From: Minisyncoccia bacterium
GTDB lineage: Bacteria; Patescibacteriota; Minisyncoccia; Phycocordibacterales; UBA918
Assembly (NCBI GenBank): GCA_046598345.1
Contig: JBKJIT010000001.1
Location: forward strand, 108,251-172,250
Direction: 5' to 3'
Length of the DNA stretch: 64,000 nt
Shown: piece after piece, positions 9,770 through 53,843 of the stretch
How the letters are laid out: each line of letters begins with the position of its first letter
Numbering within the stretch: the stretch's first letter is position 1
The notes under the pieces: generated by a model
What the model saw: the letters and a program-made list of their open reading frames with translations, nothing else
What the model was told of the DNA's origin: nothing
Databases searched by the model: none
Position numbers and translations under genes: made by a program

Positions 9770-9994
9770 ATGGAACCAGCAACAGTGCACGGCATTGCGC
9801 ATGAAGCTGCAGTGAGCCTGAATGACATCGAGCTGATTCAGTTGTGGTCCACAATGACTGCAACTCGATCACCTGACGCGGTGCAAAAGGTGCTTCGGGG
9901 AGAGCCTGGTTCGGCAATCTCGGACGCGCGGCTCCGTGAAGTCGCTGATGCGATGAGTGAGCGAAATCTGTTCTCGTCGATGTGTCTCCTGTAA
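9770..9994 (+). CDS. small hypothetical protein (74 aa)
   Basis: Strong RBS GGGGAGGAGAGT then ATG at 9770. Followed by terminator 10008..10040. Confidence 0.45.
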   Translation: MEPATVHGIAHEAAVSLNDIELIQLWSTMTATRSPDAVQKVLRGEPGSAISDARLREVADAMSERNLFSSMCLL

Positions 9995-10007
9995 AGGAAC
10001 ACCAATA

Positions 10008-10040
10008 CGCCCCGCGGCCTTCAGGCAGCGGGGCGGTTTC
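10008..10040 (+). terminator. rho-independent terminator
   Basis: cgccccgc ggccttcaggca gcggggcg gtttctg. A TATACT -10-like hexamer follows, ahead of the 10056 start. Confidence 0.6.
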
Positions 10041-10055
10041 TGTTATACTTTCAAT

Positions 10056-39354: not shown

Positions 39355-40149
39355 CCCGATTTCTTTTTTGATATCGGATTCATTTACGACTCCATCTTTT
39401 AAAGCTTTTTTCACAACGTCAAAGAAAAGGTTTTCAATCTGTCTATTAGGGTGGGGAGCATAATGTGTCGGGTACCTTCCTAGGAGCTTGTATATTGGCT
39501 CACGAGGAATGATACCTAGTATGGTCTTCATCTTATTTCGGGTGAAATCAATAGGTAGACCAGTCTTCCAGGGCTGAGTGAGTCTTCCTGTCATATGAAT
39601 CATTTTTGTTTCTTCCGTGTATTCATCGAGGTGATTCCAGATGCGGGGAAGCGGAGTGATTGATGTTTCTTTACGTAAGTCCATTAACTCCCGATATGTT
39701 AGGGCACGGTCATGAAGTGCAGCGAGGAAAGTCCGAATATTCCAATGTGTTAGTTTCGCACAATTAAGCAGCATCACACTCGTATCCCATGCATCTTTCT
39801 TAGGACATGCCGCTATTGCATGACCCTTTAGATCAAAAGAAAAAAGTTCCTCGATATTGGTGAGTGCAAAGATGTCTGGATCAATAACCACGGCAATTCC
39901 TTCGTACCCCATAAGTTCGGGCGTCATAAAGCGGGAAAGGGTAAAAGACTGCAAATCAGTGTTGGTATATATTCGCTCGTCACCCTCCACATACGTGTAT
40001 ACAGTACCTATAAAATTCTTGAAAATATCAATTTCATCCACGTTCATTATTTCAACATTGGATCCGGCCTTTGATTCGATGGCATACTTTGCTATACGAG
40101 CGCCAAAAAGCTGTTTATTGTTTGTTTGAATAAATACAGTAGGTTGCAT
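39313..40149 (-). CDS. GT-A fold glycosyltransferase, GT8-like
   Basis: DxD-like VVIDPDIF and C-terminal HMTGRLTQPW resembling the GT8 H-x-G-x-x-KPW motif. Confidence 0.45.
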   Translation of the reverse strand: MQPTVFIQTNNKQLFGARIAKYAIESKAGSNVEIMNVDEIDIFKNFIGTVYTYVEGDERIYTNTDLQSFTLSRFMTPELMGYEGIAVVIDPDIFALTNIEELFSFDLKGHAIAACPKKDAWDTSVMLLNCAKLTHWNIRTFLAALHDRALTYRELMDLRKETSITPLPRIWNHLDEYTEETKMIHMTGRLTQPWKTGLPIDFTRNKMKTILGIIPREPIYKLLGRYPTHYAPHPNRQIENLFFDVVKKALKDGVVNESDIKKEIGLGNIRPDFMVKLG

Positions 40150-40159
40150 AAGCCATATT

Positions 40160-41962
40160 CTACACTAACTCATACTCATGCATGAGTATTGCAAGGGAGA
40201 GATAGAAATGTAGTGCCTTACCGGGCCATTTTTCATCACGTTCGACAACCTGTTTGATTTTCTTCCAGTCAATAATTTCATTTTTGTGCTCCACTGCACT
40301 CAATATATCTAAGAAATGTTCTTTGTAGGTATCGTCGTACCACGCTTTTACAGGAGCACGCCAGCCGGTTTTTTCTTTCCTTTTAGAAATATACTGTGGA
40401 AGTTTTTGGTCATATATTTCACGTAGAAATATTTTATTTGAATCTGCGGAAATATACTGCTTCGATGAGATGTGTGTATCCATGTATGTTCGAAGGGGAG
40501 TGTAGGCAAGTGGACAGCGCATTTCCATCGACTGGCTCATATACAGTTTGTCTGAGCGTATAAAATTTTCTGACGCGAGCCAAAAGAAACGATCGAGAAG
40601 CATTGCTCGATATACGTCATCCGTTTTTTTGCTATAGATTGGCAAAAGCAGGTCTGTCGTTTCTTTAAGGTATTTCCGTACATTTGATTTTGTATTTTTC
40701 GTTGAAAAAGTTGAAGGTAGACCTCGAAAGTGTAAGAAAATATCCGAGATTTCACTGTAATCTGTATCATCATTATTACGAACACTTTTTATTACGTTTA
40801 CTCCGTATGATGTAAGCAGTCTTTTGTAGTTCTCAACCCTTTGTATGAGTCTGTAGTGAGGATATCCTCCAAACAGCTCGTCCCCACCGTCTCCGGAGAG
40901 TACAACGCGTAATCCTTGGCCATGTATTCCCTCAATGCATGCTGTCTGATAATAAATAGGAACAGAAATGTTATAGTTGGGCTCCTCAATTGCCTTGTAT
41001 GCGTTTATAAAGTTTCTTAGATATGACTCTTTCGTGATCTGAATGGGAGTAAATTCCTGATTAAAATCTTTAGCTAATTTCTCTGCAAGAAATGCATCAG
41101 CGTTATGAGATTCATCCCCGCCTTCAAATGTGGTACTGAAGGCATGTATGGTTCGCCCAGCTCGAACACTTTCATAGAAAATGAGTGAAGAGTCCAGGCC
41201 ACCACTTAGATTTATAGAAATTTCACGCTTACTCTGAAGATGGTCTACTATTGTTTGTGATATAGCCTCTCCTGGACTGAGACGGTCGTACTCGGATTCA
41301 CCGCTCGAAATAAACAATTCAGACGAAAGAAGGGATGTGTTCATGTCGAAAGTCATGACTTCAGACGGGTGTAGTTTACGAACATCAGAAATAAACGTTC
41401 TATTTCCTGGGACGTAACCGATACTTGTAGCAACTTCAATGGCTAAAAGATCAAGATCTCGCTTAATAAAGGGAAATTTTAGTATTGCCTTTAATTCCGA
41501 AGCAAAAACAAACTTCCCATTTACGAAGGCATAGTACAAGTTTTTTTGACCTGACTGATCACGGTAAAGACGTAGAACCTTTTCAGCCTTATTGTACAGG
41601 GCAATCGCAAACATTCCGTGAATATGCCTAGCAAAATCCCATCCATGCTTCTTTATAAGTCTAAAGAGGAGTAGCGTATCGACGGTCGTTGCAACCCCGG
41701 TAACTCCTAGATCACGTTGGATAGCTGCAGTGTTGTAAAGTTGTCCATTAAATGCGAGTACCCATGGACTCTCTTCATTCATTACAGGTTGAATAGACTC
41801 ACGAATGTCACCACGGATTGCTAGGAGGAGATGACTAATGAGGACATTCTGATCTTCAAAAGTTCCTATGTAGTCTGGTCCTCGATGATGTTGCGTTTCG
41901 CGGGCAGCATTAAAATCCCTTATTTCTAGCCCCCCTTTAGTAGCGCCGATGATGCCGCACAT
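40160..41962 (-). CDS. asparagine synthase (glutamine-hydrolysing) family amidotransferase, second paralog
   Basis: MCGIIG N-terminal nucleophile. SGGLDSS PP-loop. 600 aa. Confidence 0.85.
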   Translation of the reverse strand: MCGIIGATKGGLEIRDFNAARETQHHRGPDYIGTFEDQNVLISHLLLAIRGDIRESIQPVMNEESPWVLAFNGQLYNTAAIQRDLGVTGVATTVDTLLLFRLIKKHGWDFARHIHGMFAIALYNKAEKVLRLYRDQSGQKNLYYAFVNGKFVFASELKAILKFPFIKRDLDLLAIEVATSIGYVPGNRTFISDVRKLHPSEVMTFDMNTSLLSSELFISSGESEYDRLSPGEAISQTIVDHLQSKREISINLSGGLDSSLIFYESVRAGRTIHAFSTTFEGGDESHNADAFLAEKLAKDFNQEFTPIQITKESYLRNFINAYKAIEEPNYNISVPIYYQTACIEGIHGQGLRVVLSGDGGDELFGGYPHYRLIQRVENYKRLLTSYGVNVIKSVRNNDDTDYSEISDIFLHFRGLPSTFSTKNTKSNVRKYLKETTDLLLPIYSKKTDDVYRAMLLDRFFWLASENFIRSDKLYMSQSMEMRCPLAYTPLRTYMDTHISSKQYISADSNKIFLREIYDQKLPQYISKRKEKTGWRAPVKAWYDDTYKEHFLDILSAVEHKNEIIDWKKIKQVVERDEKWPGKALHFYLSLAILMHEYELV

Positions 41963-42015
41963 ATTTCATGTATTATATATTAAACTTTCTAAAAGGAGGT
42001 TTGGTTAAAGAAAAT

Positions 42016-42975
42016 ATGGATATTGATGCATCTGCTAGGTCAAGGAAGGTTATACGTGAAGCGATTAATTCCCTCAAGGAATTTCAGAATCTCGATGAGA
42101 GATTTTGGAACGAGTTGTGTTCCCGTGTTCAGAATCGCAAGGGTAAGCTTGTGCTTACGGGAGTGGGGAAGTCAGGTTACATCGCTATGAAAGTTGCTGC
42201 CACACTCACAAGTCTTGGAAATTTTGCGACGTTTATACATCCTGTTGAAGCAATGCATGGAGATTCCGGTGGGGTAACTGAGGGGGATACGGTAATTGCT
42301 TTCTCGTATTCTGGAAACACAAAAGAACTGATTCAGTTTATGCGTCACATCAAGGAAAGAATGGAAGTGTCTTTGATTGGTGTTACAGGTGCGAGGGATT
42401 CACAACTCGGCAAACTTTCAGATATGGTGATCCTTATTACAATTCAGGAAGAGGGTAGTCCGTATAACCTTGCTCCTATGGCATCCACCACAGCAATGCT
42501 TGTTGCCGGGGATGCACTTGCAGCGGGTCTAACTTCTCCACAGACTTTCACAAAAAATGATTTCGCTCGTTATCACCCAAGTGGTACACTCGGCTTTTCA
42601 CTCACCTCAGTGAAAGAAAGAATGTTACCTCATACTCCTGACGATATGGTTGGTGAAGATACTGAACTGCAAGAAGTGTTACTCCATATGAGCAACATTG
42701 GAAAGGGGATAATTGGGGTCATTTCCCCGAATGGCGCACTTACGGGAGCAATAACCGATGGTGACATACGGAGATTCCTATGCACAAATATTTCAATCGA
42801 AGGTGCACATGCAAAAGATGCAATGAATGTGACGCCAAAGTATGTTCAGCATAACCACACACTTAAAGATGCACTTGAGATGATGGAATCTTTTAAGATC
42901 ACAAATGTCTTTGTTATCAACGAGGAAAGCATACCAATTGGCATCCTTCACATGCATGATATTTTAAGCTCATGA
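42016..42975 (+). CDS. kpsF: arabinose-5-phosphate isomerase (KpsF/GutQ family: SIS + tandem CBS)
   Basis: RBS AAAAGGAGG. SIS domain LVLTGVGKSGYIAMKVAATLTSLG. Two C-terminal CBS-like repeats. Confidence 0.75.
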   Translation: MDIDASARSRKVIREAINSLKEFQNLDERFWNELCSRVQNRKGKLVLTGVGKSGYIAMKVAATLTSLGNFATFIHPVEAMHGDSGGVTEGDTVIAFSYSGNTKELIQFMRHIKERMEVSLIGVTGARDSQLGKLSDMVILITIQEEGSPYNLAPMASTTAMLVAGDALAAGLTSPQTFTKNDFARYHPSGTLGFSLTSVKERMLPHTPDDMVGEDTELQEVLLHMSNIGKGIIGVISPNGALTGAITDGDIRRFLCTNISIEGAHAKDAMNVTPKYVQHNHTLKDALEMMESFKITNVFVINEESIPIGILHMHDILSS

Positions 42976-44441
42976 GAGAAGAGATAGATTTTAGTTACGC
43001 CCTCGAATTTTATAATCGATTGGAAGCTGTCCACATGGACAATCTCCCCCTCACGAAATATTTTGAATGTGAAGGGTCTGACTATTGGCAATTTTACAAA
43101 CAGAGGATTTTTGAAGAAATTAAGACTTTTAGTCGAACAAAGCACATAGTGCGACCAAGGGCGAATCGTTTTAGTAAGACGGTAGATTTTTGCGTGTATG
43201 TCGGGGTCGTTCTCTCAACTGTGTTTTCTTTAATGCGTAAAAGAAAGGCGCTAGTGTATGCAATTGATAAAGTAGACCCAGTGCACAAGAGTGATTTTAG
43301 GCTTTCTACCGTGTATGCATTTCTTAAGAGAGCACAGATATCTTATCTAGAAATCTTCCATACCGTGATAGGGGGTGCGACCATCAAGCATTTCTTTCAG
43401 CGAAGGCGAATTGTTACCTACCTCGAAGCAGCCGATCGTCTCTATCCCATAGCAGTATGGCTCAAGCTCCATAAGCCTCTCGAGCTGGCTGTAGTTACAA
43501 ATATAGCCCTAGAAAATTTTAGTGAAAGAGAAAGAGAATTCGCCATTACTCTCATACAAAAATATCTACGTCAAATCGATATTTCTCGTTTTAAAATTAT
43601 GTTTTTTTCCTTTCTTATGCGAAAAAGCAAATGCAAAATATTTCTTGCAATTGACGATGCTCGTTATTATTACGAACTCTTAAGAGCGGCAAAACTTGCC
43701 AAGGTTCCAAGCTATGCCTTCCAGCATGGACACTTTACGAAATACCATGTTGGATGGCTTAGATCTAATAATCAGTATGGCGAGTCGACCTATCCAGATC
43801 ATTTTTTAGTTTCGAGTGAATATTGGAAACAGGAACTAACTAGGTTGGGTGGGATTATGCCATCACATACTATTCTTGTCTCTGGAGACAAGACGCCTAC
43901 ACCAGACACTGCGTTTAGGGACATGCGTGAGGAAAGTAAGATACATATTCTTATCCCTTACGAAACAGCGTGCCCAAAGCATGAAGTTGCAGTGTATATA
44001 CGCAGCTTTCTGAGTATAAAAAATGTTCATGTGATATTTAAGCTTCGCCCAGATATGTCTACAGCTGAACAATTGAAGGAGTACGGCCTACAAGAATTAA
44101 AGGACTCACGGTTTGAGACCGCGGTAGATATTGGGGAATGTATAGAAAGAGTAGATATAGTTGCTGGAGTCTATTCAACATTTCTATATGACATGATTTT
44201 ATATAAGAAGCGAGTTGTTATCCTTGACACCTCATCTGATTATGGTGAGGGCATGTACGAAAACGGCTTGGCGGATCTTTTGAAGCGAGGGCGTGATCTT
44301 GAGACTTTTATATGGCAAATTAAAAAATTGCCGGACTCACTAATTGTGGAAAGAAAAACAAAATTATTAGCTAATGGAATTACACTGGAACAGACATTGA
44401 AAGATATAGTTGAAAAACATATTCATGACCGATTACTTTAA
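42972..44441 (+). CDS. hypothetical protein, possibly a capsule-synthesis (KpsS/KpsC-like) or TagF-like glycosyl/phosphotransferase
   Basis: 489 aa with no clear motif. Placed by synteny between kpsF and a kdsB-like gene. A QHGHF motif is present. Confidence 0.35.
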   Translation: MREEIDFSYALEFYNRLEAVHMDNLPLTKYFECEGSDYWQFYKQRIFEEIKTFSRTKHIVRPRANRFSKTVDFCVYVGVVLSTVFSLMRKRKALVYAIDKVDPVHKSDFRLSTVYAFLKRAQISYLEIFHTVIGGATIKHFFQRRRIVTYLEAADRLYPIAVWLKLHKPLELAVVTNIALENFSEREREFAITLIQKYLRQIDISRFKIMFFSFLMRKSKCKIFLAIDDARYYYELLRAAKLAKVPSYAFQHGHFTKYHVGWLRSNNQYGESTYPDHFLVSSEYWKQELTRLGGIMPSHTILVSGDKTPTPDTAFRDMREESKIHILIPYETACPKHEVAVYIRSFLSIKNVHVIFKLRPDMSTAEQLKEYGLQELKDSRFETAVDIGECIERVDIVAGVYSTFLYDMILYKKRVVILDTSSDYGEGMYENGLADLLKRGRDLETFIWQIKKLPDSLIVERKTKLLANGITLEQTLKDIVEKHIHDRLL

Positions 44442-44558
44442 GGTAAGTCCTGTAAAAGATGTTTTCGACATTTTGTTTTCGTTATTTTTTCTAGATTGTT
44501 TTGATCGCGTGAGAAACCTTGCTCTGGAGACCAAATTGCTTTAACTAATCAGAGTAAT

Positions 44559-45818
44559 TTACTTAGGACGATACATTTTGAACAAAATATAGAGCATAAA
44601 ACAATGCACAATATAGAAAATTAGAAGGGAGAAGACAGCGCCCCATATACCATATATAGGTACTAAGATAATGAGCGGTATAATCCGAATCACTGGTTTT
44701 GTAATGTTGAGTATGTACAATTCTTTTTTACTTCCGAGTGAGGTTAGTGCTTGTGTATAAAGGGTAAGAGGAATAGTGAAGAGTGTAAGAGAAAGTACTT
44801 GGGAATATCTCACTGCTTCTTGATATTCAGGAAAAAAATGGATAAAGAGAAATTCAGCGAATGTAATATAAGAAAGAATAAGGACGATGCTAATAAGAAA
44901 AGTAATAAACATTTTATGTGGAAGCGCATCCCTCAGTTCTTCATAGGTGCGTGTACTAAATTTCGGCAATATAAGTGAACGAATGATCTTTGAAGTACCA
45001 TGAAGTTGCCGTATCGGAGCGAGAGCAATGGCATAGATAGCGAGAGAGGTTGCTCCTAGAAGCTGAAAAATAATGACTTTATCAATATATGTAGAAAAGT
45101 TAGAGAATGAATCCATGAGACTCAAGTGTTTTCCCAAAGAAAGAGATTTGTTGTCTACAAATGCATTTTTGTCGATCTTCCTGACCAAGAGAAAATAACG
45201 AACTGAAGAAATAATCATATTTGAAAGAAAGAGAGTGAGCACAGCATAAATGACATCTTCAGTGAGATAGGCAACCAGGATGACACTAGTTGTGATAGCA
45301 ATATTTTTGTATATGTTATCGTTAGCAATCTTAGTAAATTGTTTTTTGCCGTTAAAATATGATCCGTAGAGTGAGGATGCATATAAGAGAGGCGAGCAGA
45401 GCCCGATAATTAGGAGCGAGTATCCGAGAACATCATTATTCTTGTAAAGGTAGTATGATCCCCCCAGAAGTGTTAACAACGATACGGGAATGGTCCATTT
45501 AAGTTTAAGAAGGAAACCTTTTATTAGAGTACGCTCAGATCCACGGGCCACTGCTTGCGCTACTGAAATGTCCAATCCAGAGAGAGTAAATGCAGCAATC
45601 ATACTGGCGATTGAAAGAATATACGCATAAAATCCGTACTCAGCTGGATTAAAGATTCGTACCAGGCAAAGGGTAAGTACAAATCCAGAGATACCGGCAA
45701 AGATTTGACCAATAGTAAGTACCATAGTTCCTTTAGCCAAATACCGGACATCTGTCTTAAGGTAAGGCTGTAATCTACTTGCAAGACGATTAAGAATATA
45801 AATTGATCTTTTTTTCAT
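44559..45818 (-). CDS. Wzx-like oligosaccharide flippase (MOP/polysaccharide biosynthesis protein family)
   Basis: 419 aa, 12 to 14 TM. N-terminal LAKGTMVLTIGQIFAGISGF typical of Wzx/PST family. Confidence 0.7.
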   Translation of the reverse strand: MKKRSIYILNRLASRLQPYLKTDVRYLAKGTMVLTIGQIFAGISGFVLTLCLVRIFNPAEYGFYAYILSIASMIAAFTLSGLDISVAQAVARGSERTLIKGFLLKLKWTIPVSLLTLLGGSYYLYKNNDVLGYSLLIIGLCSPLLYASSLYGSYFNGKKQFTKIANDNIYKNIAITTSVILVAYLTEDVIYAVLTLFLSNMIISSVRYFLLVRKIDKNAFVDNKSLSLGKHLSLMDSFSNFSTYIDKVIIFQLLGATSLAIYAIALAPIRQLHGTSKIIRSLILPKFSTRTYEELRDALPHKMFITFLISIVLILSYITFAEFLFIHFFPEYQEAVRYSQVLSLTLFTIPLTLYTQALTSLGSKKELYILNITKPVIRIIPLIILVPIYGIWGAVFSLLIFYIVHCFMLYILFKMYRPK

Positions 45819-45908
45819 TGGTATATATAACGCTAGGTAGCTTCGCTTTGTTCTATATATTTAACCTTAAATATAGTATAGTTTTGAAGAAAAATATCAT
45901 ACATTAAC

Positions 45909-47015
45909 GTGGAACAAGAAAGAAAACTTAAAGTCTTATCAGTTTTTCGGTCGCATCTCCTTGAAAACCGCGGGACGCCACTTCGCGTTAAATCACTTAT
46001 TAGTCACTTTAGGGGGGATGTCGACCTAGAATGGCATACGTGCACCCTGGATAGGGAGAGTCCGCTCGGTTTGCCGCATATCTCAATAATGCATGATCAT
46101 TTATATGATATTCGGAAGATCGCTTCGTATGCCGAAAAAAACAATATCAATGTTTTGATCTTCCACAGTGTCGCTGCAGCATTCTATCTTCCTTTTTTAA
46201 AACTGCTAATGCCCCGGAAAAAATTTGTGCTTGAGATGCACGGGTTTCGTGAAGAGGAAAGTCTTCTCTATGGAAGTATTTCAAAATTTACGTATAATCG
46301 CGATCGTCTCTTTTATAGCGTGATCTACAGGCTCGCCAATCTCATTACTACGTGCAGCGAAACTGCAAGTCAACGAATGAGGAAATATAATAAGAATGTT
46401 GTAACCGTTTATGGTGGTTTTGATCCAGTTTTATTTAATTCACATGTTTCTTCCGGAAACTTTATACAAAGAAATGCCGAAGATATTATCGTTGGATATG
46501 CGGGCGATGGTCGGAAATGGCAAGGTCTACCTTTTCTATTGGATGCGTTTGATAAGCTAGTTCAACTACATCCGAAGTTTAAGCTAGCACTGCTTTTAAG
46601 TGAAAACCGTAAGATTCCTGAGCGACCATACATTCAAGTCTTAGGGGCACTACCACATGATATGGTAGCCAGGTTTACTGTTGATTGTGACATCTTAGTC
46701 ATCCCCCGTATTCATTCACCTGTAAATGAACTTGGGTATCCCTCTAAATTAATGGAATACATGGCGATGGGAAAACCTGTGGTAGGAAGTAGAACAAGTG
46801 ATATTCACAAAATAATTCGTTCAGGGGAAAATGGAGTTCTTTTTAATCCTGAAGATGTAGAAGGCTTCATTGAAGCAACAAGTAGTTTGACAGAGAAGGA
46901 AGTGCGTAAAACAATTGGGAAAAGAGCAGAAGAAACCGCCTTTGCCGGATTTACGTGGGAAATACAGGGTGCTCTTTTTAAAGATGCTATTTTTAAGATA
47001 GGAAGAAGATATTGA
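45909..47015 (+). CDS. glycosyltransferase family 4
   Basis: VGYAGDGRKWQG and GYPSKLMEYMAMGKPVVGSRTSDI. Confidence 0.75.
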   Translation: MEQERKLKVLSVFRSHLLENRGTPLRVKSLISHFRGDVDLEWHTCTLDRESPLGLPHISIMHDHLYDIRKIASYAEKNNINVLIFHSVAAAFYLPFLKLLMPRKKFVLEMHGFREEESLLYGSISKFTYNRDRLFYSVIYRLANLITTCSETASQRMRKYNKNVVTVYGGFDPVLFNSHVSSGNFIQRNAEDIIVGYAGDGRKWQGLPFLLDAFDKLVQLHPKFKLALLLSENRKIPERPYIQVLGALPHDMVARFTVDCDILVIPRIHSPVNELGYPSKLMEYMAMGKPVVGSRTSDIHKIIRSGENGVLFNPEDVEGFIEATSSLTEKEVRKTIGKRAEETAFAGFTWEIQGALFKDAIFKIGRRY

Positions 47016-47079
47016 TTTATTTCTATTTGTATTGTATAATATCTAGGTAAGTTCATTTCATCTTTAGAAAGGGGTTCAA

Positions 47080-47670
47080 ATGTCTGCTCAAAGACCGATG
47101 GAGCAAGTTGTTGATAGCGATTCAGTACAGTTGGTGGCAAACCAGAAATTTCACCACCTTGGCAAAAACGGGGTACCTTATTTTCGTTTGAGGGTGCAGA
47201 GGTTGCCGAATGGGGATGTGTATCCCATGATCTCCACACCGGATGCGGCAAGCGTGCTCCCCGTTGAATGTGACGCAGCGGGACTCATAGTTGGGGCTCA
47301 CTTCCTTTGTCAGGAAAGACCGGAGTCTGAAGGTGTGATTACCAAGGCGGTGGGTGGGTACTGCAACCTTGGTGAAACCCGGGAGGAAGCTGCAATTCGA
47401 ACACTTCGGGCTAAGATGGGGATTGTTACGGAAGTCAAAGATCTGATCCCCTGTGGTGAGGCATATGGCTATGGTGACCAATACAGATTTCCGGTCTCAT
47501 GCTATGTATCGAAGGCGTTCTTCGTTGATCAAGACGCGGTTTTAGGCTCGGGGTGTAAGCGTCGTTTCATGACGATTAAGGAGGTTGCGGACACCCATCG
47601 CAAGAATCGATTCTTCAGTGATGACACTGTGCACTTGATCGCTACGATCATGTTGCGAAATGCGATGTGA
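47080..47670 (+). CDS. NUDIX hydrolase
   Basis: Nudix box GGYCNLGETREEAAIRTLRAKMGI (Gx5Ex7REUxEExGU). Confidence 0.65.
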   Translation: MSAQRPMEQVVDSDSVQLVANQKFHHLGKNGVPYFRLRVQRLPNGDVYPMISTPDAASVLPVECDAAGLIVGAHFLCQERPESEGVITKAVGGYCNLGETREEAAIRTLRAKMGIVTEVKDLIPCGEAYGYGDQYRFPVSCYVSKAFFVDQDAVLGSGCKRRFMTIKEVADTHRKNRFFSDDTVHLIATIMLRNAM

Positions 47671-48853
47671 GATGCATACGAGTGGTAAATTGAATGGCCG
47701 GGGATCTCCCCGGTCTTTTTCTTATTCAGAATTAGCTTGCATATTCTTGCTGTGTGTGGAGAATGAATGGGTGTCAAAACGGTCATTTCTTGTTGTGTTG
47801 GGAGCGCGTCCGAATTTCGTAAAGGCAGCGCCCTTTTTTCGTCGTGCAAAAGAGTACCCAGAATTTGAATTTAAGCTGGTCCATACTGGACAACATTTTG
47901 ATGACAATATGTCTAAAATCTTTTTCGAGGAGATGCAAATCCCCAAACCGGATATCCATTTAGACATAAAGGGTGATTTTCACACAGAAAAAATAGGCAA
48001 AATGTTTACAGCTCTAAAAGAGGTGGTCCGCACTCACGGACAGGATGGTGTAATTGTTTTTGGAGACATTAACTCGACCCTCGCTGGGGCTGTTGCTGCT
48101 GCTACTGAACGAAAGCGGATCATTCATATAGAATCCGGTCTACGTAGCCACGACCGAAGAATGCCTGAGGAAATCAATAGAGCGATCGTTGATCACCTCA
48201 GTGACCTACTTTTTGTGACCGAAGAATCCGGGAAGGAGAATTTACTCAAGGAAGGTATATCTGAGGAAAGGATTCATGTTGTAGGAAACATTATGATTGA
48301 GAGTATTGAGCTTTTTAAAAACCATTTTCATAGTTCAAATGTGCACGAACAACTCTTAACCACTCCCCAAGATTATTATGTTGCCACTATACATCGTTCT
48401 GAAAATACTGATGATGTGCACATTTTAGAGAAGATTATGAATATTCTAGATGCACTTTCAAAAGAAAAGCCGATTGTTATGCCACTTCATCCAGGAACTC
48501 GTCAGAAATTACTGAATTTTGGACTTGAAAAAAAATTGCAAGGAATTAAAGTAATCGAACCATTGGGTTACATAGATTTTATGAAACTCGTTATCGATTC
48601 ATCCGGTGTAGTAACAGACTCGGGAGGTATTCAGGAAGAAACTTCTCATTTGGGCATTCCATGTAGTACGCTACGGGAGAACACCGAGCGCCCAATAACC
48701 GTATCTTTAGGATCTAATAAGTTGTTTAACATTGATGACATTTCTTTAGAGGCTCTCATTGCCCATTTGGGAAGGAAAGATTTTAAGTCGAATCATATTC
48801 CACTTTGGGATAAGGATGTCAGTAAAAGGATTTTAGATATTTTAAGAAAATGA
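47660..48853 (+). CDS. UDP-N-acetylglucosamine 2-epimerase (WecB/NeuC family); probable GTG start near 47771
   Basis: LGARPNFVK...HTGQHFD..MS..FF family signature. 397 aa in track. Confidence 0.8.
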   Translation: MRCEMHTSGKLNGRGSPRSFSYSELACIFLLCVENEWVSKRSFLVVLGARPNFVKAAPFFRRAKEYPEFEFKLVHTGQHFDDNMSKIFFEEMQIPKPDIHLDIKGDFHTEKIGKMFTALKEVVRTHGQDGVIVFGDINSTLAGAVAAATERKRIIHIESGLRSHDRRMPEEINRAIVDHLSDLLFVTEESGKENLLKEGISEERIHVVGNIMIESIELFKNHFHSSNVHEQLLTTPQDYYVATIHRSENTDDVHILEKIMNILDALSKEKPIVMPLHPGTRQKLLNFGLEKKLQGIKVIEPLGYIDFMKLVIDSSGVVTDSGGIQEETSHLGIPCSTLRENTERPITVSLGSNKLFNIDDISLEALIAHLGRKDFKSNHIPLWDKDVSKRILDILRK

Positions 48854-49602
48854 AACAAAAAAAAGTATTGGGAATTATACCAGCACGACTTAACTCAACA
48901 CGGCTTCCGCGCAAAATGCTGCAAGATATTTGTGGGAAGCCGATGATTCAGTGGACGTACGAGAGTGTAAAAAAGGCAAAAATTTTGGATGCTGTTGTTG
49001 TGGCAACTGACTCTATAGAAATCGCCGATGCGGTGAAAGCGGTTGGTGGTATGGTACTTATGACTTCTTCCAAACCCAAGAATGGGACAGAAAGGGTAGC
49101 TGAAGCTGCGCGACTATTTAACGGCTTTAAACCCGATATTGTTATCAACATCCAAGGAGATGAACCCATGATGCCTGTTTCTGCAATTACGAAAACGGTA
49201 GAACTACTGCTCGCAGATGGAAAAACAGTCATGTCTACAGTAGCCCGGCCATTTCCCAAAGGAGGTAACTTAGCGGAACCAGGGCAGGTAAAAGTAGTCC
49301 TTGATAAAGATAATTATGCGCTTTATTTCTCAAGGTCAAAGATTCCATATGAGAGAACGCCGTATGCCAAATTTTATAATCATATTGGAATTTATGGATA
49401 CCAGTATGAGTTTTTGCAAAAATTTGTAACCTTTAGGCAGACACCGTTAGAAAAAGCAGAACTTCTTGAGCAACTTCGTGCGCTTGAAAACGGATTCAAA
49501 ATCAAGGTGGGAATAGGAAAGTATGAAAGGCTTGAAGTAAATGAGCCGCATGAGTTAGAGGCTGTGCGTAAAATGATGGCAAGACGCTTGAAATCAAGGT
49601 AA
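48850..49602 (+). CDS. kdsB: 3-deoxy-manno-octulosonate cytidylyltransferase-like (CMP-Kdo synthetase family; CMP-sugar synthetase)
   Basis: IIPARLNSTRLPRKML and NIQGDEPMM. 250 aa, the expected KdsB length. Confidence 0.7.
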   Translation: MKQKKVLGIIPARLNSTRLPRKMLQDICGKPMIQWTYESVKKAKILDAVVVATDSIEIADAVKAVGGMVLMTSSKPKNGTERVAEAARLFNGFKPDIVINIQGDEPMMPVSAITKTVELLLADGKTVMSTVARPFPKGGNLAEPGQVKVVLDKDNYALYFSRSKIPYERTPYAKFYNHIGIYGYQYEFLQKFVTFRQTPLEKAELLEQLRALENGFKIKVGIGKYERLEVNEPHELEAVRKMMARRLKSR

Positions 49603-49674: not shown

Positions 49675-51321
49675 ATGCAGAATGAAGAGCAAAAAGAGGA
49701 TATTCTGAACCTTCCGCGCCTTAATGTTAAAGGTCGTCAACTTCACGATCTTGAGGTAATGCTCGTAGGTGGATTTTTCCCAGTTGAGGGCTTCATGGAT
49801 GAGGCAGACTACAATGCTGTCGTCGAGACTATGCACCTCGCAGATGGACAGATTTTTCCTATTCCTATTGTCCTCGACGTGCCACACGATAGCCCATATC
49901 ACGTAGGGGATCGAATCCTCCTCTGTGATCCGTTTGGAAATCCGCTTGCGATCATGAACGTGAGTTCGCGATTTACGCCAGATAAGCAAAACGAAGTACT
50001 AAAGGTCTATGGTACAGATGACCCAATGCATCCGGGTGTTCAGTATGTCCTCGATGAAATGCATGATACCTATATTGGTGGACCGGTAGCACATTTGGCA
50101 CTTCCAGTACGTCATGATTTTAAGCAGTGGAGACGGACACCGGCAGAACTCAAGGCACTTTTTAAAGAACGAGGTTGGGACAAGGTCGTTGGGTTCCAAA
50201 CACGTAACCCAATGCACCGCGCACATTTTGAGCTCGTGAAGCGTGCGTCAGAGACGGTTGGCGCACCAGTCCTCATTCATCCTGTAGTTGGTATGACGAA
50301 ACCGGGCGACATTGATTATGTCACTCGTGTGCGAACGTATAATGTTGTGCATTCAAAGTATGGAAAAGACTTTACAGAACTTTCGCTCTTACCGCTTGCA
50401 ATGCGAATGGCGGGACCGCGTGAGGCAGTGTGGCACTCGATCATTAGGCGAAACTACGGCTGCACGCACTTCATTGTGGGGCGCGATCATGCGGGGCCAG
50501 GAAAGGGAAGTGACGGCAAAGATTTTTACGGTCCGTATGAGGCCAGAGATCTTGCGCTTACTTGTGCGGACGAAGTAGGAATCACCATTGTGCCTTCGGA
50601 CGAACTCGCATATTCAAAGACACGCGATGCGTATGTTTCGACGAGTGAAGTAACTCCGGAGGACGAGATTGAGAATATTTCCGGCACTGAATTCCGACGC
50701 CGACTCTTTGCAGGAGAAGAAATTCCCGATTGGTTTTCATTTAAGGAAAGCATTGATATTTTACGCCAAAGTGTGAAGCGCGATACGCGCCCTGGAGTAG
50801 CTGTGTTTTTTACGGGTCTTTCATGTTCCGGAAAATCAACGCTTGCAAACCTTCTCCTTGCACGACTCCAGGAAATCCAAGACAGAGAGATTACACTCCT
50901 CGATGGCGATTTGATTCGGGCACACCTTTCAAAAGGACTTGGATTCTCAAAGGAGGATCGGGATGAAAATGTGAAGCGTGTCGGGTTTGTGGCGAGCGAA
51001 ATTGTGCGACACGGGGGTATTGTAATTTGCGCCCTTATTGCACCGTACAAGGATGCACGTCGCTACGTACGCAACCTGATCGAGCAGCACGGTGAATTCG
51101 TTGAAATTTTTGTCGAGACCTCGCTCGAAGAATGTGCTCGTCGCGATACAAAGGGTCTCTATGAAAAGGCGAAGCAGGGACTCATTAAAAATTTCACGGG
51201 CGTTGATGATCCGTATGAGATTCCTGAAAGCCCTGAACTTGTGGCCAAAACGGAGGAGGCGACTCCTGAGATGCTTGTCGAAGAAATCATTTCTAGCTTG
51301 AAAGACCGCAAGGTACTGTAA
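49675..51321 (+). CDS. bifunctional sulfate adenylyltransferase (Sat-type ATP sulfurylase) / adenylylsulfate kinase (CysC): PAPS synthase
   Basis: GFQTRNPMHRAHFEL and GRDHAG motifs of ATP sulfurylase. C-terminal APS kinase P-loop GLSCSGKSTLAN. Confidence 0.85.
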   Translation: MQNEEQKEDILNLPRLNVKGRQLHDLEVMLVGGFFPVEGFMDEADYNAVVETMHLADGQIFPIPIVLDVPHDSPYHVGDRILLCDPFGNPLAIMNVSSRFTPDKQNEVLKVYGTDDPMHPGVQYVLDEMHDTYIGGPVAHLALPVRHDFKQWRRTPAELKALFKERGWDKVVGFQTRNPMHRAHFELVKRASETVGAPVLIHPVVGMTKPGDIDYVTRVRTYNVVHSKYGKDFTELSLLPLAMRMAGPREAVWHSIIRRNYGCTHFIVGRDHAGPGKGSDGKDFYGPYEARDLALTCADEVGITIVPSDELAYSKTRDAYVSTSEVTPEDEIENISGTEFRRRLFAGEEIPDWFSFKESIDILRQSVKRDTRPGVAVFFTGLSCSGKSTLANLLLARLQEIQDREITLLDGDLIRAHLSKGLGFSKEDRDENVKRVGFVASEIVRHGGIVICALIAPYKDARRYVRNLIEQHGEFVEIFVETSLEECARRDTKGLYEKAKQGLIKNFTGVDDPYEIPESPELVAKTEEATPEMLVEEIISSLKDRKVL

Positions 51322-51608: not shown

Positions 51609-53843
51609 TTGCGCAAAGAGTTACTAACTTTTAATTTCACTCGGATGAAAGATATTGCAAAAGGAATAGTGTATTTGGGAGTTTTTGCCATCCCATTTAT
51701 TCCCCTCATTATTTCCAACACAATGTTTTTTCCCTTTATTACGGGAAAAAATTTCACCTTCCGCGTCATTGTTGAAATTATTTTTGCAGCATGGATACTA
51801 CTCGCTCTCTATGAACCTCTCTATAGGCCACGTTTTTCGTGGATAGTCGCTGGGTTTACATCGCTCCTCGTCGTAATGTTTTTTGCGAATCTTTTCGGGG
51901 CAAACCCGCTCCAGAGTTTTTGGAGCAATTTCGAACGTATGGAAGGGTATGTCACCTTGGTGCATATGTTCCTCTACTTTCTTGTGGCTGGGAGTGTACT
52001 TACTACTGATAAGCTTTGGAACCGTTTTTTCAACACAACACTTTTTGCAGCAGTACTCCTCTCGCTCTATGCATTTGCGCAGCTTTCTGGGAATATTGTT
52101 ATCAATCAGGGAGGATGGCGTCTCGATGGAACTCTGGGTAATTCAGCGTATATGGCAATCTATATGCTTTTCCACAGCTTCATAGCGCTCTTTATGCTTG
52201 TACGGACGCGTACTCGAGGACTTCAATACACGTATGGGGCGCTTTTAATTCTATTCATTTTTCTTCTCATACAGACAGCGACTCGCGGTTCAATAATCGG
52301 ATTTTTCGGGGGCCTCTTTGTGACAACGCTCTACATCACGCTATTTATCAAGGATCATCCACGAGTTCGTAAGGTAGCAATATCTTCACTCGTTGCTGTG
52401 GTTGCTCTTGTTGGACTCTTTGTTGCATTTAGGGACTCAGCACTTATTCAAAGCAACCCCTACCTCGGTCGAGTCGCGAACATAACGCTGAGTGAAGGAA
52501 ATGTACGTTTTAAAGTGTGGAATATGGCGATTGAAGGATTTAAGGAACGCCCAGTTCTTGGATGGGGACAGAGTAATTTCAACTACGTTTTCAATGAGCA
52601 CTATGATCCATCAATCTACTTTGCTGAATCATGGTATGACCGGGTGCACGATATTGCATTCGATTGGCTCATTGCAGGGGGTGTCTTAGGATTCATTGCG
52701 TACTTCTCGATTCTAGCTGCAGCACTCTACTACCTTTTCTTTAGACCACTCTTTAAGAAAGACGATGAGTCAATGACTGTGGTTGAGCGGGGTGTGCTCC
52801 TCGGTCTCCTTGCGGGATATGTCTTCCATAATATTTTCGTGTTCGACAACATCGTAAGTTATGTCTATTACGGAACCATCCTCGCATTTATTCATTCACG
52901 TGTTGCGTCGGCAATACCCAAGGTGGCAGCAGCAAAATTTGACACGCGTGTACTCGAACAGATTGCTACACCTGTTGTTGGGGTCGCACTCTTGTTTGTG
53001 ATCTACTTTGTGAATGCACCGGGTATTCGAGCTGCGAGTGACATTATTGATGCATTTTCAACACAGTCTCCAGACGCAGCCTTCCAACAGTTTGACGAAG
53101 CACTCTCGCGTAATTCATTTGGAAACCAGGAAATCCGGGAACAGCTCACGAGACAGGCACAAGCACTCATCCAGGATCCTAAAGCCGATGCAGCTCTTAA
53201 GGAAAAGGTGAAAGCACGTGTGGAAGAAGAGCTCATTAAGCAGATTGAGGAAAAGCCTAATGATGCACGTGTGCATGTATTCATTAGCTCCTTCTATCGA
53301 ATGACGGGGGATATTGATAAGGCAATCGAACAACTCGAAATAGCTCGTTCTCTTTCTCCACAAAAGCAGCAAATTATTTTTGAACAGGGGCTCGCGCATC
53401 TCCAGAAGGGTGAGAACGACATAGCACTCGCATACTTTAAAGAGGCGTATGATCTTGCACCTTCTTACTCGGAAGCCGCAGTATTCTATGCAGTTGCAGG
53501 ACTTTTCGCGGGGAAGCCAGAGATTATAGACGAAGTTCTTACCACCAAAGAGCTTAGAGATAGCTTCTCAGAAAATGATCTTGCCGTGCAAGCTGCGTAC
53601 AGCACGAAGCAATTTGATGTTCTCGAAAATATATTTAAGACTCGAATAGAACGGAAACCGGAAGATCCTCAGGCACGTACCAATCTTGCGTTTATCCTGA
53701 ATGAACAGGGTAAAACAACCGAGGCGATTGAAATTCTGAACCAAGCAGCGAAAGATATTCCGTCATTTGAAGGACAGTCACAGCAGTTTATTGCGAGTCT
53801 CCTTGCGGGAAACAGTCCAACGACGAGCCCTGTAGCACCGTAG
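51609..53843 (+). CDS. O-antigen ligase-domain (Wzy_C) membrane protein fused to C-terminal TPR repeats; putative O-oligosaccharyltransferase or polymerase
   Basis: About 12 TM N-terminal half with TATRGSIIGFFGGL (Wzy_C-like loop). The C-terminal 300 aa is soluble, helical and TPR-like. Confidence 0.65.
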   Translation: MRKELLTFNFTRMKDIAKGIVYLGVFAIPFIPLIISNTMFFPFITGKNFTFRVIVEIIFAAWILLALYEPLYRPRFSWIVAGFTSLLVVMFFANLFGANPLQSFWSNFERMEGYVTLVHMFLYFLVAGSVLTTDKLWNRFFNTTLFAAVLLSLYAFAQLSGNIVINQGGWRLDGTLGNSAYMAIYMLFHSFIALFMLVRTRTRGLQYTYGALLILFIFLLIQTATRGSIIGFFGGLFVTTLYITLFIKDHPRVRKVAISSLVAVVALVGLFVAFRDSALIQSNPYLGRVANITLSEGNVRFKVWNMAIEGFKERPVLGWGQSNFNYVFNEHYDPSIYFAESWYDRVHDIAFDWLIAGGVLGFIAYFSILAAALYYLFFRPLFKKDDESMTVVERGVLLGLLAGYVFHNIFVFDNIVSYVYYGTILAFIHSRVASAIPKVAAAKFDTRVLEQIATPVVGVALLFVIYFVNAPGIRAASDIIDAFSTQSPDAAFQQFDEALSRNSFGNQEIREQLTRQAQALIQDPKADAALKEKVKARVEEELIKQIEEKPNDARVHVFISSFYRMTGDIDKAIEQLEIARSLSPQKQQIIFEQGLAHLQKGENDIALAYFKEAYDLAPSYSEAAVFYAVAGLFAGKPEIIDEVLTTKELRDSFSENDLAVQAAYSTKQFDVLENIFKTRIERKPEDPQARTNLAFILNEQGKTTEAIEILNQAAKDIPSFEGQSQQFIASLLAGNSPTTSPVAP

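What the first reader, a model, noticed from the sequence alone, without database searches (positions are those of the whole stretch)
41968..49602. Incomplete Kdo / nonulosonate-like module: KpsF + unknown 489-aa protein + UDP-GlcNAc 2-epimerase + KdsB-like CMP-sugar synthetase, but no KdsA/NeuB in the window
KpsF makes arabinose-5-phosphate, which only feeds Kdo-8-P synthase. A KdsB-like cytidylyltransferase (IPARLNSTRLPRK...QGDEPM) sits 6 kb away, next to a WecB/NeuC-type 2-epimerase and a NUDIX hydrolase. No aldolase-type synthase (KdsA or NeuB) is seen in 64 kb. The ORF between kpsF and the flippase (42972..44441) has no recognisable motif and could be a novel synthase or a KpsS/KpsC-like beta-Kdo transferase. 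The organism might make a CMP-activated 8- or 9-carbon acidic sugar by a non-canonical route, or kdsA might lie elsewhere.
Basis: partly seen in the sequence, partly recalled or inferred. Interest (0 to 1): 0.65.

Follow-up and report, generated by a model that had tools for sequence, protein, structure and literature searches.

The report
Kdo sugar module with unknown glycosyltransferase
In a surface-sugar gene cluster of an ultra-small (Patescibacteria) bacterium, an unannotated 489-residue protein has a glycosyltransferase fold and, in many relatives, sits inside operons for the acidic sugar Kdo, so it is probably a new family of Kdo-adding enzyme and not evidence of a new way to make the sugar.

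Summary
The window encodes a KpsF-type arabinose-5-phosphate isomerase (41968-42975), a 489-aa ORF with no Pfam or NCBIfam hit (42972-44441), a WecB-type epimerase and a true KdsB (48850-49602). No KdsA, DAHP-synthase, NeuB or KdsC homologue lies anywhere in the 64 kb.

- The 489-aa protein ("U489") is not a synthase. Its confident AlphaFold model (pLDDT 93.9) is a two-Rossmann-domain (GT-B) glycosyltransferase fold with a conserved hydrophobic anchor helix.
- U489 belongs to a Patescibacteria-restricted family.
- Of 89 non-redundant related loci, 53 carry a Kdo-pathway gene within 10 kb and 43 carry one directly adjacent on the same strand.
- In several relatives U489 is the last gene of a KdsB-phosphatase-KpsF-KdsA operon. 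In one of these it is the only gene with a recognisable glycosyltransferase fold within 10 kb.
- Canonical KdsA therefore exists in this lineage, so kdsA most likely lies elsewhere in this genome. I could not test that.
- U489 lacks the QXXXD and HP motifs of KpsC/KpsS/WbbB-type enzymes and the GT30 and GT4 signatures.
- The 9-carbon (nonulosonate) reading is not supported: the epimerase is non-hydrolysing, and the Nudix box is degenerate.

Best reading: a candidate new Kdo-transferase family, inferred from gene context only.

The parts
39313..40149 (-). GT8-like 278-aa protein, a conserved neighbour of the module
   Evidence: Weak Glyco_transf_8 match. It is 45-60% identical in 32 of the first 50 related loci and usually lies divergent from kpsF-U489.
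40160..41962 (-). AsnB-like glutamine amidotransferase, a conserved neighbour
   Evidence: GATase_7 + Asn_synthase domains. Found in 21 of the first 50 related loci at the same position.
41968..42975 (+). KpsF/GutQ-family sugar-phosphate (arabinose-5-phosphate) isomerase. The real start is probably the ATG at 42016, downstream of an AAGGAGG.
   Evidence: SIS + CBS domains. TIGR00393 scores 233 bits against a 203.7 cutoff. The SIS domain matches solved arabinose-5-phosphate isomerases 5uqi and 2xhz. Start region read.
42972..44441 (+). U489: membrane-anchored GT-B-fold protein of an unannotated, Patescibacteria-restricted family. Candidate CMP-Kdo-dependent Kdo transferase.
   Evidence: - No Pfam or NCBIfam hit.
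- AF2 model pLDDT 93.9, pTM 0.92.
- Foldseek against the PDB finds only generic GT-B enzymes: TM 0.35-0.48 for the whole protein and 0.5-0.64 for the C-terminal domain alone.
- A hydrophobic helix at about residues 70-88 is present in 83 of 88 homologues.
- The start codon overlaps the kpsF stop.
- Kdo genes are adjacent in relatives.
44559..45818 (-). Wzx-type flippase
   Evidence: Polysacc_synt and Polysacc_synt_3 domains. Conserved next to U489 in 41 of the first 50 loci.
45909..47015 (+). GT4 glycosyltransferase. Part of a block absent from the same position in the closest relative.
   Evidence: Glycos_transf_1 and Glyco_transf_4 domains. Absent between Wzx and KdsB in L091.
47080..47670 (+). 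Nudix-fold-like protein with a degenerate Nudix box, followed by a hairpin plus T-run at 47696-47715
   Evidence: Pfam NUDIX scores 20.2 bits, below the 21.1 gathering score. The catalytic REUXEE is replaced by RTLRAK. Hairpin reported. No homologue in any related locus.
47660..48853 (+). Non-hydrolysing UDP-GlcNAc 2-epimerase (WecB). The real start is probably near 47771.
   Evidence: TIGR00236 scores 282 bits (cutoff 210); NeuC scores 85 bits (cutoff 236). The family match starts at residue 44, and a terminator-like hairpin lies inside the 5' extension of the ORF.
48850..49602 (+). KdsB, CMP-Kdo synthetase
   Evidence: NF003952 281 bits (cutoff 193) and TIGR00466 208 bits (cutoff 155). It scores 177 bits against the solved KdsB 3oam. 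Its ATG overlaps the wecB stop. It is 77% identical to the KdsB of L091, which holds the same position before the PAPS synthase.
49675..51321 (+). Bifunctional sulfate adenylyltransferase / APS kinase (PAPS synthase)
   Evidence: NF004040 scores 779 bits against a 669 cutoff. The KdsB-PAPS synthase adjacency is conserved in L091.
51609..53843 (+). Wzy_C (O-antigen ligase/polymerase-like) + TPR membrane protein that closes the glycan locus before murB-secA
   Evidence: Wzy_C plus TPR domains. Conserved in 27 of the first 50 related loci.

Best explanation
The region is the conserved core of a Wzx/Wzy-type surface-glycan locus of a Paceibacteria/Parcubacteria (Patescibacteria) bacterium, and this locus builds Kdo into its glycan.

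Proposed pathway:
1. KpsF makes arabinose-5-phosphate.
2. A KdsA and a Kdo-8-P phosphatase, encoded outside this window, make Kdo.
3. KdsB activates Kdo to CMP-Kdo.
4. The 489-aa protein (U489), held at the membrane by a hydrophobic helix, uses its GT-B domain to transfer Kdo from CMP-Kdo onto the lipid-linked glycan.
5. Wzx then flips the glycan, and the Wzy_C-TPR protein polymerises or ligates it.

What is shown:
- The identities of KpsF, KdsB, WecB and Wzx.
- The GT-B fold of U489.
- The tight, recurrent linkage of U489 to all four Kdo-pathway genes in relatives.

What is inferred:
- That U489's donor is CMP-Kdo.
- That kdsA lies elsewhere in this genome.
For: 1. Fold. The AF2 model has pLDDT 93.9. 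All top PDB matches are GT-B glycosyltransferases or epimerases.

2. Gene linkage in 89 non-redundant related loci.
- 53 have at least one Kdo-pathway gene within 10 kb, and 43 have one on the same strand within 400 bp of U489.
- Among the 39 loci with at least 9 kb on both sides, the figures are 28 and 19.
- If four Kdo genes were placed at random in a genome of about 1 Mb (my own estimate), roughly 8% of loci would have one within 10 kb.

3. Every pathway step is found next to U489 in some genome.
- KpsF-U489-KdsA in L015.
- KpsF-U489-methyltransferase-KdsA in L051.
- KdsB-U489 in L014 and L041.
- KdsB-His phosphatase-KpsF-KdsA-U489 in L054 and L055.
- DAHP-synthase-type-KdsB-KdsC-U489 in L030 and L032; in L038 the same three genes lie about 6 kb from U489.
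- The KdsA calls are above the curated cutoffs: NF003543 scores 374-381 bits against 242.

4. In L054, U489 is the only gene with a recognisable glycosyltransferase fold within 10 kb of a complete CMP-Kdo operon, and a flippase follows it.

5. At least 10 contigs carry both U489 and KdsA. This was judged by matching the contig length reported for each hit in the two searches.

6. The kpsF stop and the U489 start overlap in the window, which suggests translational coupling.

7. The conserved residues are rich in Arg, Lys and His (R110, R144, R146, R231, H252, H254, K257, H259, K357, R359), which fits anionic substrates. This is an inference.

8. A conserved hydrophobic helix suits a lipid-linked acceptor.

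9. There is a precedent: E. coli kps loci carry kpsF + kpsU + Kdo transferases without kdsA.
Against: - No biochemical evidence exists. The donor is inferred only from gene neighbourhood.
- The closest structural neighbours of the whole protein and of its nucleotide-binding domain use UDP- or TDP-sugars (GT1, GT4, MurG, UDP-GlcNAc 2-epimerases). No CMP-sugar enzyme appears in the top 50 of either search.
- None of the known CMP-binding or Kdo-transferase motifs is conserved.
- 36 of 89 related loci show no Kdo gene nearby, although many of those contigs are short.
- kdsA and a phosphatase were not found for this genome. No KdsA or DAHP-synthase hit carrying the window's contig length (174,316 bp) appeared among the best 120 of either search. 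That result is inconclusive, not negative.
Confidence: 0.55

Rival explanations
1. U489 is a GT-B glycosyltransferase in the Kdo-containing glycan pathway, but it uses an ordinary UDP-, TDP- or GDP-sugar. It might add the sugar that Kdo is attached to, or the next sugar onto Kdo. Another protein would be the actual Kdo transferase.
For: The nearest structural neighbours are GT1, GT4 and MurG enzymes and UDP-GlcNAc epimerases. There is no HP, QXXXD or SRRT motif. 17 of 88 members weakly match the GT4 N-terminal domain.
Against: In L054 no other recognisable glycosyltransferase lies within 10 kb of the complete CMP-Kdo operon that ends in U489. No alternative Kdo-transferase family (GT30, PF05159) was found in the window or appears among the Pfam-annotated genes of related loci. 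The EX7E motif of GT4 is absent.
Confidence: 0.22
2. U489 has a GT-B fold but is not a transferase. It could be an epimerase or hydrolase acting on a nucleotide sugar, in the way that UDP-GlcNAc 2-epimerases share the fold.
For: UDP-GlcNAc 2-epimerases (NeuC, MnaA, WecB) rank among the top structural matches.
Against: Identity to the epimerases is at most 17% and TM only 0.34-0.59. The profile comparison with the window's own WecB gave a probability of 0.6%. A conserved membrane helix is atypical for these soluble enzymes. The family is present where no epimerase substrate pathway is evident.
Confidence: 0.08
3. The genome lacks KdsA, and U489 or another unknown protein supplies a non-canonical route to a CMP-activated 8- or 9-carbon acid. 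Alternatively, Kdo is salvaged from a host.
For: No synthase lies in the 64 kb. The closest syntenic relative, L091, also shows none within 10 kb. KdsA is the pathway gene least often linked to U489, in 9 of 89 loci.
Against: U489 has a glycosyltransferase fold, not an aldolase TIM barrel. It co-occurs with canonical KdsA in the same operon. Only 64 kb of a 174-kb contig from a genome I estimate at about 1 Mb was examined. The epimerase is WecB, not NeuC.
Confidence: 0.08

Closest known systems
E. coli group 2/3 capsule kps locus (kpsF, kpsU, kpsC, kpsS)
   Same: It is a polysaccharide locus that carries its own arabinose-5-P isomerase, its own CMP-Kdo synthetase and dedicated Kdo transferases, but no kdsA or kdsC; these sit elsewhere in the genome (plus textbook knowledge).
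   Different: Export there is by an ABC transporter, here by Wzx/Wzy. The transferases there are retaining beta-Kdo enzymes (GT107) with QXXXD and HP motifs, which U489 lacks. The E. coli genes duplicate LPS housekeeping genes, whereas Patescibacteria are not expected to make LPS.
Retaining beta-Kdo transferases: WbbB (GT99), KpsC/KpsS (GT107), KrkA (GT140)
   Same: They are CMP-Kdo-dependent enzymes built on a GT-B scaffold. New families are still being defined from deeply divergent sequences (PMC12887879).
   Different: Their defining QXXXD nucleophile motif and (K/R)XHP CMP-binding motif are not conserved at any alignment position in U489. They have a highly modified GT-B fold, whereas U489 best matches canonical GT-B enzymes. 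No member hits PF05159.
Inverting alpha-Kdo transferases: WaaA (GT30) and A. baumannii KdoT (family unassigned)
   Same: They have a canonical two-Rossmann GT-B architecture, associate with the membrane and act on a lipid-linked acceptor. KdoT shows that Kdo transferases can lie outside established families (PMC12856342).
   Different: No member hits PF04413. hhalign of the U489 profile against E. coli WaaA gave a probability of 0.3%. KdoT's SRRT motif occurs in 1 of 88 members. The acceptor here cannot be lipid A.
GT1 / GT4 / GT28 GT-B glycosyltransferases (for example CalG4, OleD, HepE, BshA, MurG)
   Same: These are the best structural matches for both the whole protein and the donor-binding domain. 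There is weak sequence similarity to the GT4 N-terminal domain in 17 of 88 members.
   Different: Sequence identity is 8-17% and TM at most 0.64. There is no EX7E motif and no Glycos_transf_1 hit. U489 also has an extra 90-residue N-terminal region with a hydrophobic helix.

Membership tests
KpsF/GutQ/KdsD arabinose-5-phosphate isomerases (ORF 41968-42975) | SIS domain followed by tandem CBS domains; score above the TIGR00393 cutoff | tested here: met
   SIS 78 bits and CBS 50 bits. TIGR00393 scores 233 bits against a 203.7 cutoff. The equivalog models for KdsD and GutQ are far below their cutoffs (227 against 505; 200 against 481), so substrate specificity is inferred at family level.
KdsB CMP-Kdo synthetases (ORF 48850-49602) | Score above the curated KdsB cutoffs and well above sister clades (PseF/NeuA) | tested here: met
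   NF003952 281 bits (cutoff 193), TIGR00466 208 bits (cutoff 155), PseF 55 bits (cutoff 206). All 13 PDB matches are KdsB.
Hydrolysing UDP-GlcNAc 2-epimerase NeuC (needed for a nonulosonate reading) | Score above the TIGR03568 cutoff | tested here: not met
   NeuC scores 85 bits against a 236 cutoff. WecB (TIGR00236) scores 282 bits against 210.
Nudix hydrolases (ORF 47080-47670) | Nudix box GX5EX7REUXEEXGU with its catalytic glutamates; Pfam gathering score | tested here: not met
   20.2 bits against a 21.1 gathering score. The box reads G-x5-E-x7-RTLRAKMG, so the REUXEE glutamates are missing (read from the sequence).
KdsA / DAHP synthase / NeuB aldolase-type synthases (anywhere in the window) | PF00793 or NeuB domain, or a tblastn match to KdsA, DAHPS or NeuB | tested here: not met
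   No Pfam hit in any ORF of at least 150 aa. Six-frame tblastn at E<=10 gave only hits of 24 bits or less.
Retaining beta-Kdo glycosyltransferases GT99/GT107/GT140 (U489) | [quoted passage not shown] | tested here: not met
   Definition taken from PMC12887879. No alignment column carries QXXXD in more than 4 of 88 sequences.
Retaining beta-Kdo glycosyltransferases and sialyltransferases (U489) | (K/R)XHP CMP-binding motif | tested here: not met
   [KR]xHP occurs in 3 of 88 sequences. HP occurs at any one position in at most 8 of 88.
GT107 KpsC/KpsS (U489) | Pfam PF05159 Capsule_synth | tested here: not met
   None of the 88 family members hits it at E<=1.
GT30 WaaA Kdo transferases (U489) | Pfam PF04413 Glycos_transf_N, or detectable profile similarity to WaaA | tested here: not met
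   No hit at E<=1 in 88 members. hhalign of the A1 profile against E. coli WaaA gave a probability of 0.3%.
GT4 retaining glycosyltransferases (U489) | Glycos_transf_1 C-terminal domain with the EX7E motif | tested here: not met
   No Glycos_transf_1 hit; only weak N-terminal-domain Glyco_transf_4 hits in 17 of 88 members. EX7E occurs at any one position in at most 8 of 88.
GT-B fold glycosyltransferase superfamily (U489) | Two Rossmann-like beta/alpha/beta domains with an inter-domain cleft and a C-terminal helix crossing back | tested here: met
   AF2 model pLDDT 93.9, with alternating strand/helix topology in two domains. 261 PDB matches at E<=0.001, and the top 50 shown are all GT-B enzymes.
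CMP-Kdo-dependent transferase activity (U489) | Uses CMP-Kdo as donor | not testable with these tools
   Only gene-neighbourhood evidence is available. Testing it needs an enzyme assay.

The most novel reading that the evidence does not exclude
This organism truly lacks any KdsA/DAHP-synthase-type enzyme while keeping KpsF, KdsB and U489. Its 8-carbon acid would then be made by an unrecognised synthase or salvaged from a host. A related possibility comes from sister lineages that pair U489 and KdsB with a DAHP-synthase-type enzyme. There the family may install a 7-carbon ulosonic acid, so U489 would be a general 'CMP-ulosonate' transferase of the ultra-small bacteria.
Probability: 0.1. Interest if true: 0.75.

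Novelty: new variant of a known kind. Interest (0 to 1): 0.5.

Why it matters
Kdo is regarded as a hallmark of Gram-negative LPS and capsules. Here a complete CMP-Kdo pathway recurs in the glycan loci of Patescibacteria, which are generally described as lacking an outer membrane and LPS. The pathway is tied to a glycosyltransferase-fold family with no database annotation and none of the known Kdo- or sialyl-transferase motifs.

If U489 is confirmed, it would found a new glycosyltransferase family. New Kdo-transferase families are still being defined: GT140 was published in 2026, and A. baumannii KdoT remains unassigned. Confirmation would also show that these uncultivated, host-dependent bacteria display an acidic Kdo-containing, probably sulfated, surface glycan. 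That is relevant to how they attach to hosts and are recognised.

The claim is directly testable with recombinant protein and CMP-Kdo made in situ.

Tried and rejected
- U489 as a novel synthase: rejected because of its GT-B fold and because it co-occurs with KdsA.
- Sequence links of U489 to known families: none found.
  - Pfam and NCBIfam gave no hit.
  - A relaxed Pfam scan of 88 members gave only weak GT4 N-terminal-domain hits.
  - A profile search against PDB sequences found nothing.
  - hhalign against E. coli WaaA, WaaZ, WaaC, WaaF, WaaG, WaaB, WaaS and WaaJ, and against the window's WecB, GT4s and GT8-like protein, gave probabilities below 1% in every case.
- Structural assignment of the donor: modelling the C-terminal domain alone and searching the PDB gave only UDP/TDP-sugar GT-B enzymes, which is not decisive.
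- Finding kdsA of this genome failed.
  - Look-ups of genes at the window ends found no record.
  - Only a 10-kb Logan contig is indexed for U489.
  - No accessions are given for the window's proteins.
  - Matching contig lengths in the KdsA and DAHP-synthase-type searches found no hit carrying 174,316 bp. Only the best 120 hits are listed, so this is inconclusive.
- Literature on Kdo in Patescibacteria/CPR: nothing relevant found.
- Distant U489 homologues in the Microgenomates KdsA loci, or paralogues in the window: none.
- Rfam on 38-54 kb: no RNA family.
- Promoter and terminator scans were at chance level, except for one strong hairpin at 47696-47715.
The KdsA calls were therefore re-verified with NCBIfam and with the precomputed Pfam annotations.

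Full report
**What is in the window**

ORF calling and Pfam/NCBIfam scans show that about 12-54 kb of the window is one large surface-polysaccharide locus. It holds:
- about nine GT4 glycosyltransferases;
- several SDR epimerases/dehydratases;
- two AsnB-like amidotransferases, deacetylases and methyltransferases;
- a sulfotransferase and a PAPS synthase;
- a Wzx flippase and a Wzy_C+TPR protein.

The locus is flanked by murC/murD-like genes on one side and murB-secA-obg-gatB on the other. Homologues of the unknown ORF that carry an organism name are labelled Parcubacteria, Paceibacterota, Kaiserbacteria or Patescibacteria. A few assembly labels say Saccharibacteria or Gammaproteobacteria; I take these to be mislabels. 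The window therefore comes from a Patescibacteria (CPR) genome, and its contig is 174,316 bp long.

**Checking the observation**

- ORF 41968-42975 is a KpsF/GutQ-family isomerase: SIS+CBS domains, and TIGR00393 scores 233 bits against a 203.7 cutoff.
- ORF 48850-49602 is a true KdsB. It is above two curated KdsB cutoffs, scores only 55 bits on PseF, and all its PDB matches are KdsB.
- ORF 47660-48853 is the non-hydrolysing WecB type, not NeuC (282 against 85 bits).
- The 'NUDIX hydrolase' is marginal. It falls below Pfam's gathering score, and its Nudix box lacks the catalytic glutamates.
- ORF 42972-44441 ('U489') has no Pfam or NCBIfam match.
- No KdsA, DAHP synthase, NeuB, KdsC or histidine-phosphatase homologue exists in the 64 kb in any frame.

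**What U489 is**

U489 has 151 homologues at E<=1e-3 in the 5.8-billion-protein index. They are about 490 aa long and have no precomputed Pfam domain apart from one Glyco_transf_4 hit (P0074); every source name given is 'hypothetical protein'. A profile search over 1.84 billion cluster representatives finds 401 at E<=1e-30.

An AlphaFold2 model built on an 88-sequence alignment is very confident (pLDDT 93.9, pTM 0.92). It shows two Rossmann-like domains, which is a GT-B fold. An additional N-terminal region of about 90 residues precedes them.

Foldseek against the PDB returns only GT-B enzymes: GT4, GT1, MurG, SdgB/TarM and UDP-GlcNAc 2-epimerases. The similarity is modest (TM 0.35-0.48, identity at most 13%). 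The C-terminal, donor-binding domain modelled alone gives the same families (TM 0.5-0.64).

A 19-residue hydrophobic segment at about residues 70-88 is conserved in hydrophobicity in 83 of 88 members, although not in sequence. It is flanked by basic residues, so it is most likely a membrane anchor.

U489 is therefore a membrane-associated GT-B protein, not an aldolase-type synthase.

**Gene context**

I collected 44 loci from species-representative genomes and 57 from metagenomes. I added places found by exact protein look-up. I then located Kdo-pathway genes with tblastn.

The conserved core of the locus is:

AsnB-like <- GT8-like <- | -> KpsF -> U489 (-> methyltransferase) | <- Wzx | -> Wzy_C/TPR -> murB -> secA

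After removing duplicates at 95% identity there are 89 loci other than the window.
- 53 have at least one Kdo-pathway gene within 10 kb.
- 43 have one on the same strand within 400 bp of U489.
- Among the 39 loci with at least 9 kb on both sides, the figures are 28 and 19.

Each of the four pathway steps is found directly next to U489 in some genome.
- KpsF-U489-KdsA (L015).
- KpsF-U489-methyltransferase-KdsA (L051).
- KdsB-U489 (L014, L041).
- KpsF-U489-KdsB (L100, L101, L105).
- KdsB-His phosphatase-KpsF-KdsA-U489 (L026, L029=L054, L055).
- DAHP-synthase-type-KdsB-KdsC-like-U489 (L030, L032); L038 carries the same three genes about 6 kb from U489.

The KdsA neighbours are bona fide: NF003543 scores 374-381 bits against a 242 cutoff, and TIGR01362 scores 349-362 against 314.

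In L054 a complete CMP-Kdo operon ends in U489 and is followed by a flippase. No other recognisable glycosyltransferase lies within 10 kb.

I also compared the contig length reported for each hit in the U489 search and the KdsA search. At least ten contigs carry both genes.

This is strong guilt-by-association evidence that U489 consumes the product of the pathway.

**The missing kdsA**

Canonical KdsA clearly exists in this lineage, so no non-canonical route needs to be invoked.

The pathway genes are often scattered. KdsA is the one least often linked to U489 (9 of 89 loci, against 41 for KpsF and 20 for KdsB).

The closest syntenic relative is L091. Its flanking genes are 55-78% identical to the window's, and its KdsB is 77% identical. 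It has the same layout (KpsF-U489 ... Wzx, KdsB-PAPS synthase) and also has no synthase within 10 kb.

In L091 KdsB directly follows Wzx. The GT4-Nudix-like-WecB block of the window therefore looks like an accessory insertion and not part of the Kdo module.

A well-known precedent exists. E. coli kps capsule loci contain kpsF, kpsU and Kdo transferases but no kdsA.

I could not reach the rest of this genome. Neither the KdsA nor the DAHP-synthase-type search returned a hit from the 174,316-bp contig among the 120 best hits shown. The question therefore stays open, with 'elsewhere in the genome' the most economical answer.

**Comparison with known Kdo transferases**

Retaining beta-Kdo transferases (GT99, GT107, GT140) are defined by a QXXXD nucleophile motif and a (K/R)XHP CMP-binding motif on a highly modified GT-B fold (PMC12887879). 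U489 has neither motif at any conserved position and does not hit PF05159.

It also lacks:
- the GT30 domain PF04413 (hhalign against E. coli WaaA gave 0.3% probability);
- the EX7E motif of GT4;
- the SRRT motif of A. baumannii KdoT.

The family has its own signature: D99, D108-x-R110, E127-xx-H130, R144-x-R146, D228-D-x-R231, Q251-HGHFTKYH-x-GW, W281-S-x-YWK-x-EL, P329-x-E331, K357-x-R359-x-D361, G399-x-YSTFLYD, and D423-x-G-x-G.

By its position at the end of the first strand of the N-terminal domain, D99 could be the general base of an inverting GT-B enzyme. K357/R359 and the YST loop could bind the nucleotide phosphate. These are inferences from topology, not tests.

**Verdict**

The finding is real. 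The sensational reading, a new synthase or a non-canonical route to an 8- or 9-carbon acid, is not supported.

What remains is a moderately interesting result. U489 represents an unannotated, Patescibacteria-restricted, membrane-anchored GT-B family that is embedded in CMP-Kdo operons. It is the best candidate for the Kdo transferase of a Wzx/Wzy surface glycan in bacteria not expected to make LPS.

U489 is only 28.7% identical between the window and L091, while its neighbours are 55-78% identical. That pattern is typical of glycan-specific transferases.

The functional assignment rests on context alone, so I give it a confidence of about 0.55.

Noticed in passing
L030:820-3113, L032:4987-~7400, L038:452-~2800: In three related Paceibacteria loci the synthase next to KdsB and a KdsC-like phosphatase is a DAHP-synthase-type enzyme, not KdsA. 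NF006421 scores 412 bits against a 335 cutoff, and the protein has a KPRS motif and a GPCAVE metal cysteine. In L030 and L032 U489 follows directly; in L038 it lies about 6 kb away. This may point to a 7-carbon ulosonic acid (DAH) variant of the pathway.
   Followed up: partly
L026:5649-6278; also L029/L054, L055, L033, L034, L037, L085: A His_Phos_1 (phosphoglycerate-mutase-like) phosphatase sits between kdsB and kpsF in the operons that lack KdsC. It is probably a non-orthologous Kdo-8-phosphate phosphatase.
   Followed up: partly
window 23436-24278 and 49675-51321: A sulfotransferase and a fused sulfate adenylyltransferase/APS kinase lie in the same glycan locus, which suggests a sulfated surface polysaccharide. 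The KdsB-PAPS synthase adjacency is conserved in the closest relative, L091 (77% and 78% identity).
   Followed up: partly
window 28062-29533 (-) and 30290-31126 (+): A UDP-galactopyranose mutase appears split into two overlapping ORFs (NAD_binding_8 half and GLF half), which suggests a frameshift. A UDP-glucose dehydrogenase-like ORF lacks the C-terminal domain. Both may be decaying genes or assembly errors in the variable part of the locus.
   Followed up: no
window 47696-47715: A strong GC-rich hairpin (8 bp, 7 G-C pairs) with a T-run lies just after the Nudix-like gene and inside the 5' extension of the wecB ORF. wecB probably starts near 47771, and the Nudix-like gene may be transcribed separately.
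   Followed up: partly
window 42972-44441 vs L091:9992-11464: U489 is only 28.7% identical between the window and its closest syntenic relative, while the flanking genes are 55-78% identical. This suggests allele replacement or fast divergence of the transferase.
   Followed up: partly
window 28000-50000: GC content drops to 0.36-0.43 across the variable part of the glycan locus, against 0.45-0.50 in the flanks. This is as expected for horizontally exchanged glycan genes.
   Followed up: no
L052:10001-12090, L053:10001-11636: In Microgenomates (Levybacteria and relatives) KdsA sits with an SIS-only isomerase (no CBS domains), a HAD phosphatase and a 927-aa methyltransferase-GT2 fusion. There is no U489 or KdsB nearby, so Kdo genes in Patescibacteria come in at least two different architectures.
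   Followed up: partly
window 39313-40149 (-): The GT8-like 278-aa protein is the most conserved protein of the locus (45-60% identity across relatives). It is almost always divergent from kpsF-U489, and its role is unknown.
   Followed up: no
window 9957-11966: A TraG/VirD4-like coupling ATPase is encoded just upstream of the glycan locus. A TrwB-like gene also lies near the locus in L054.
   Followed up: no
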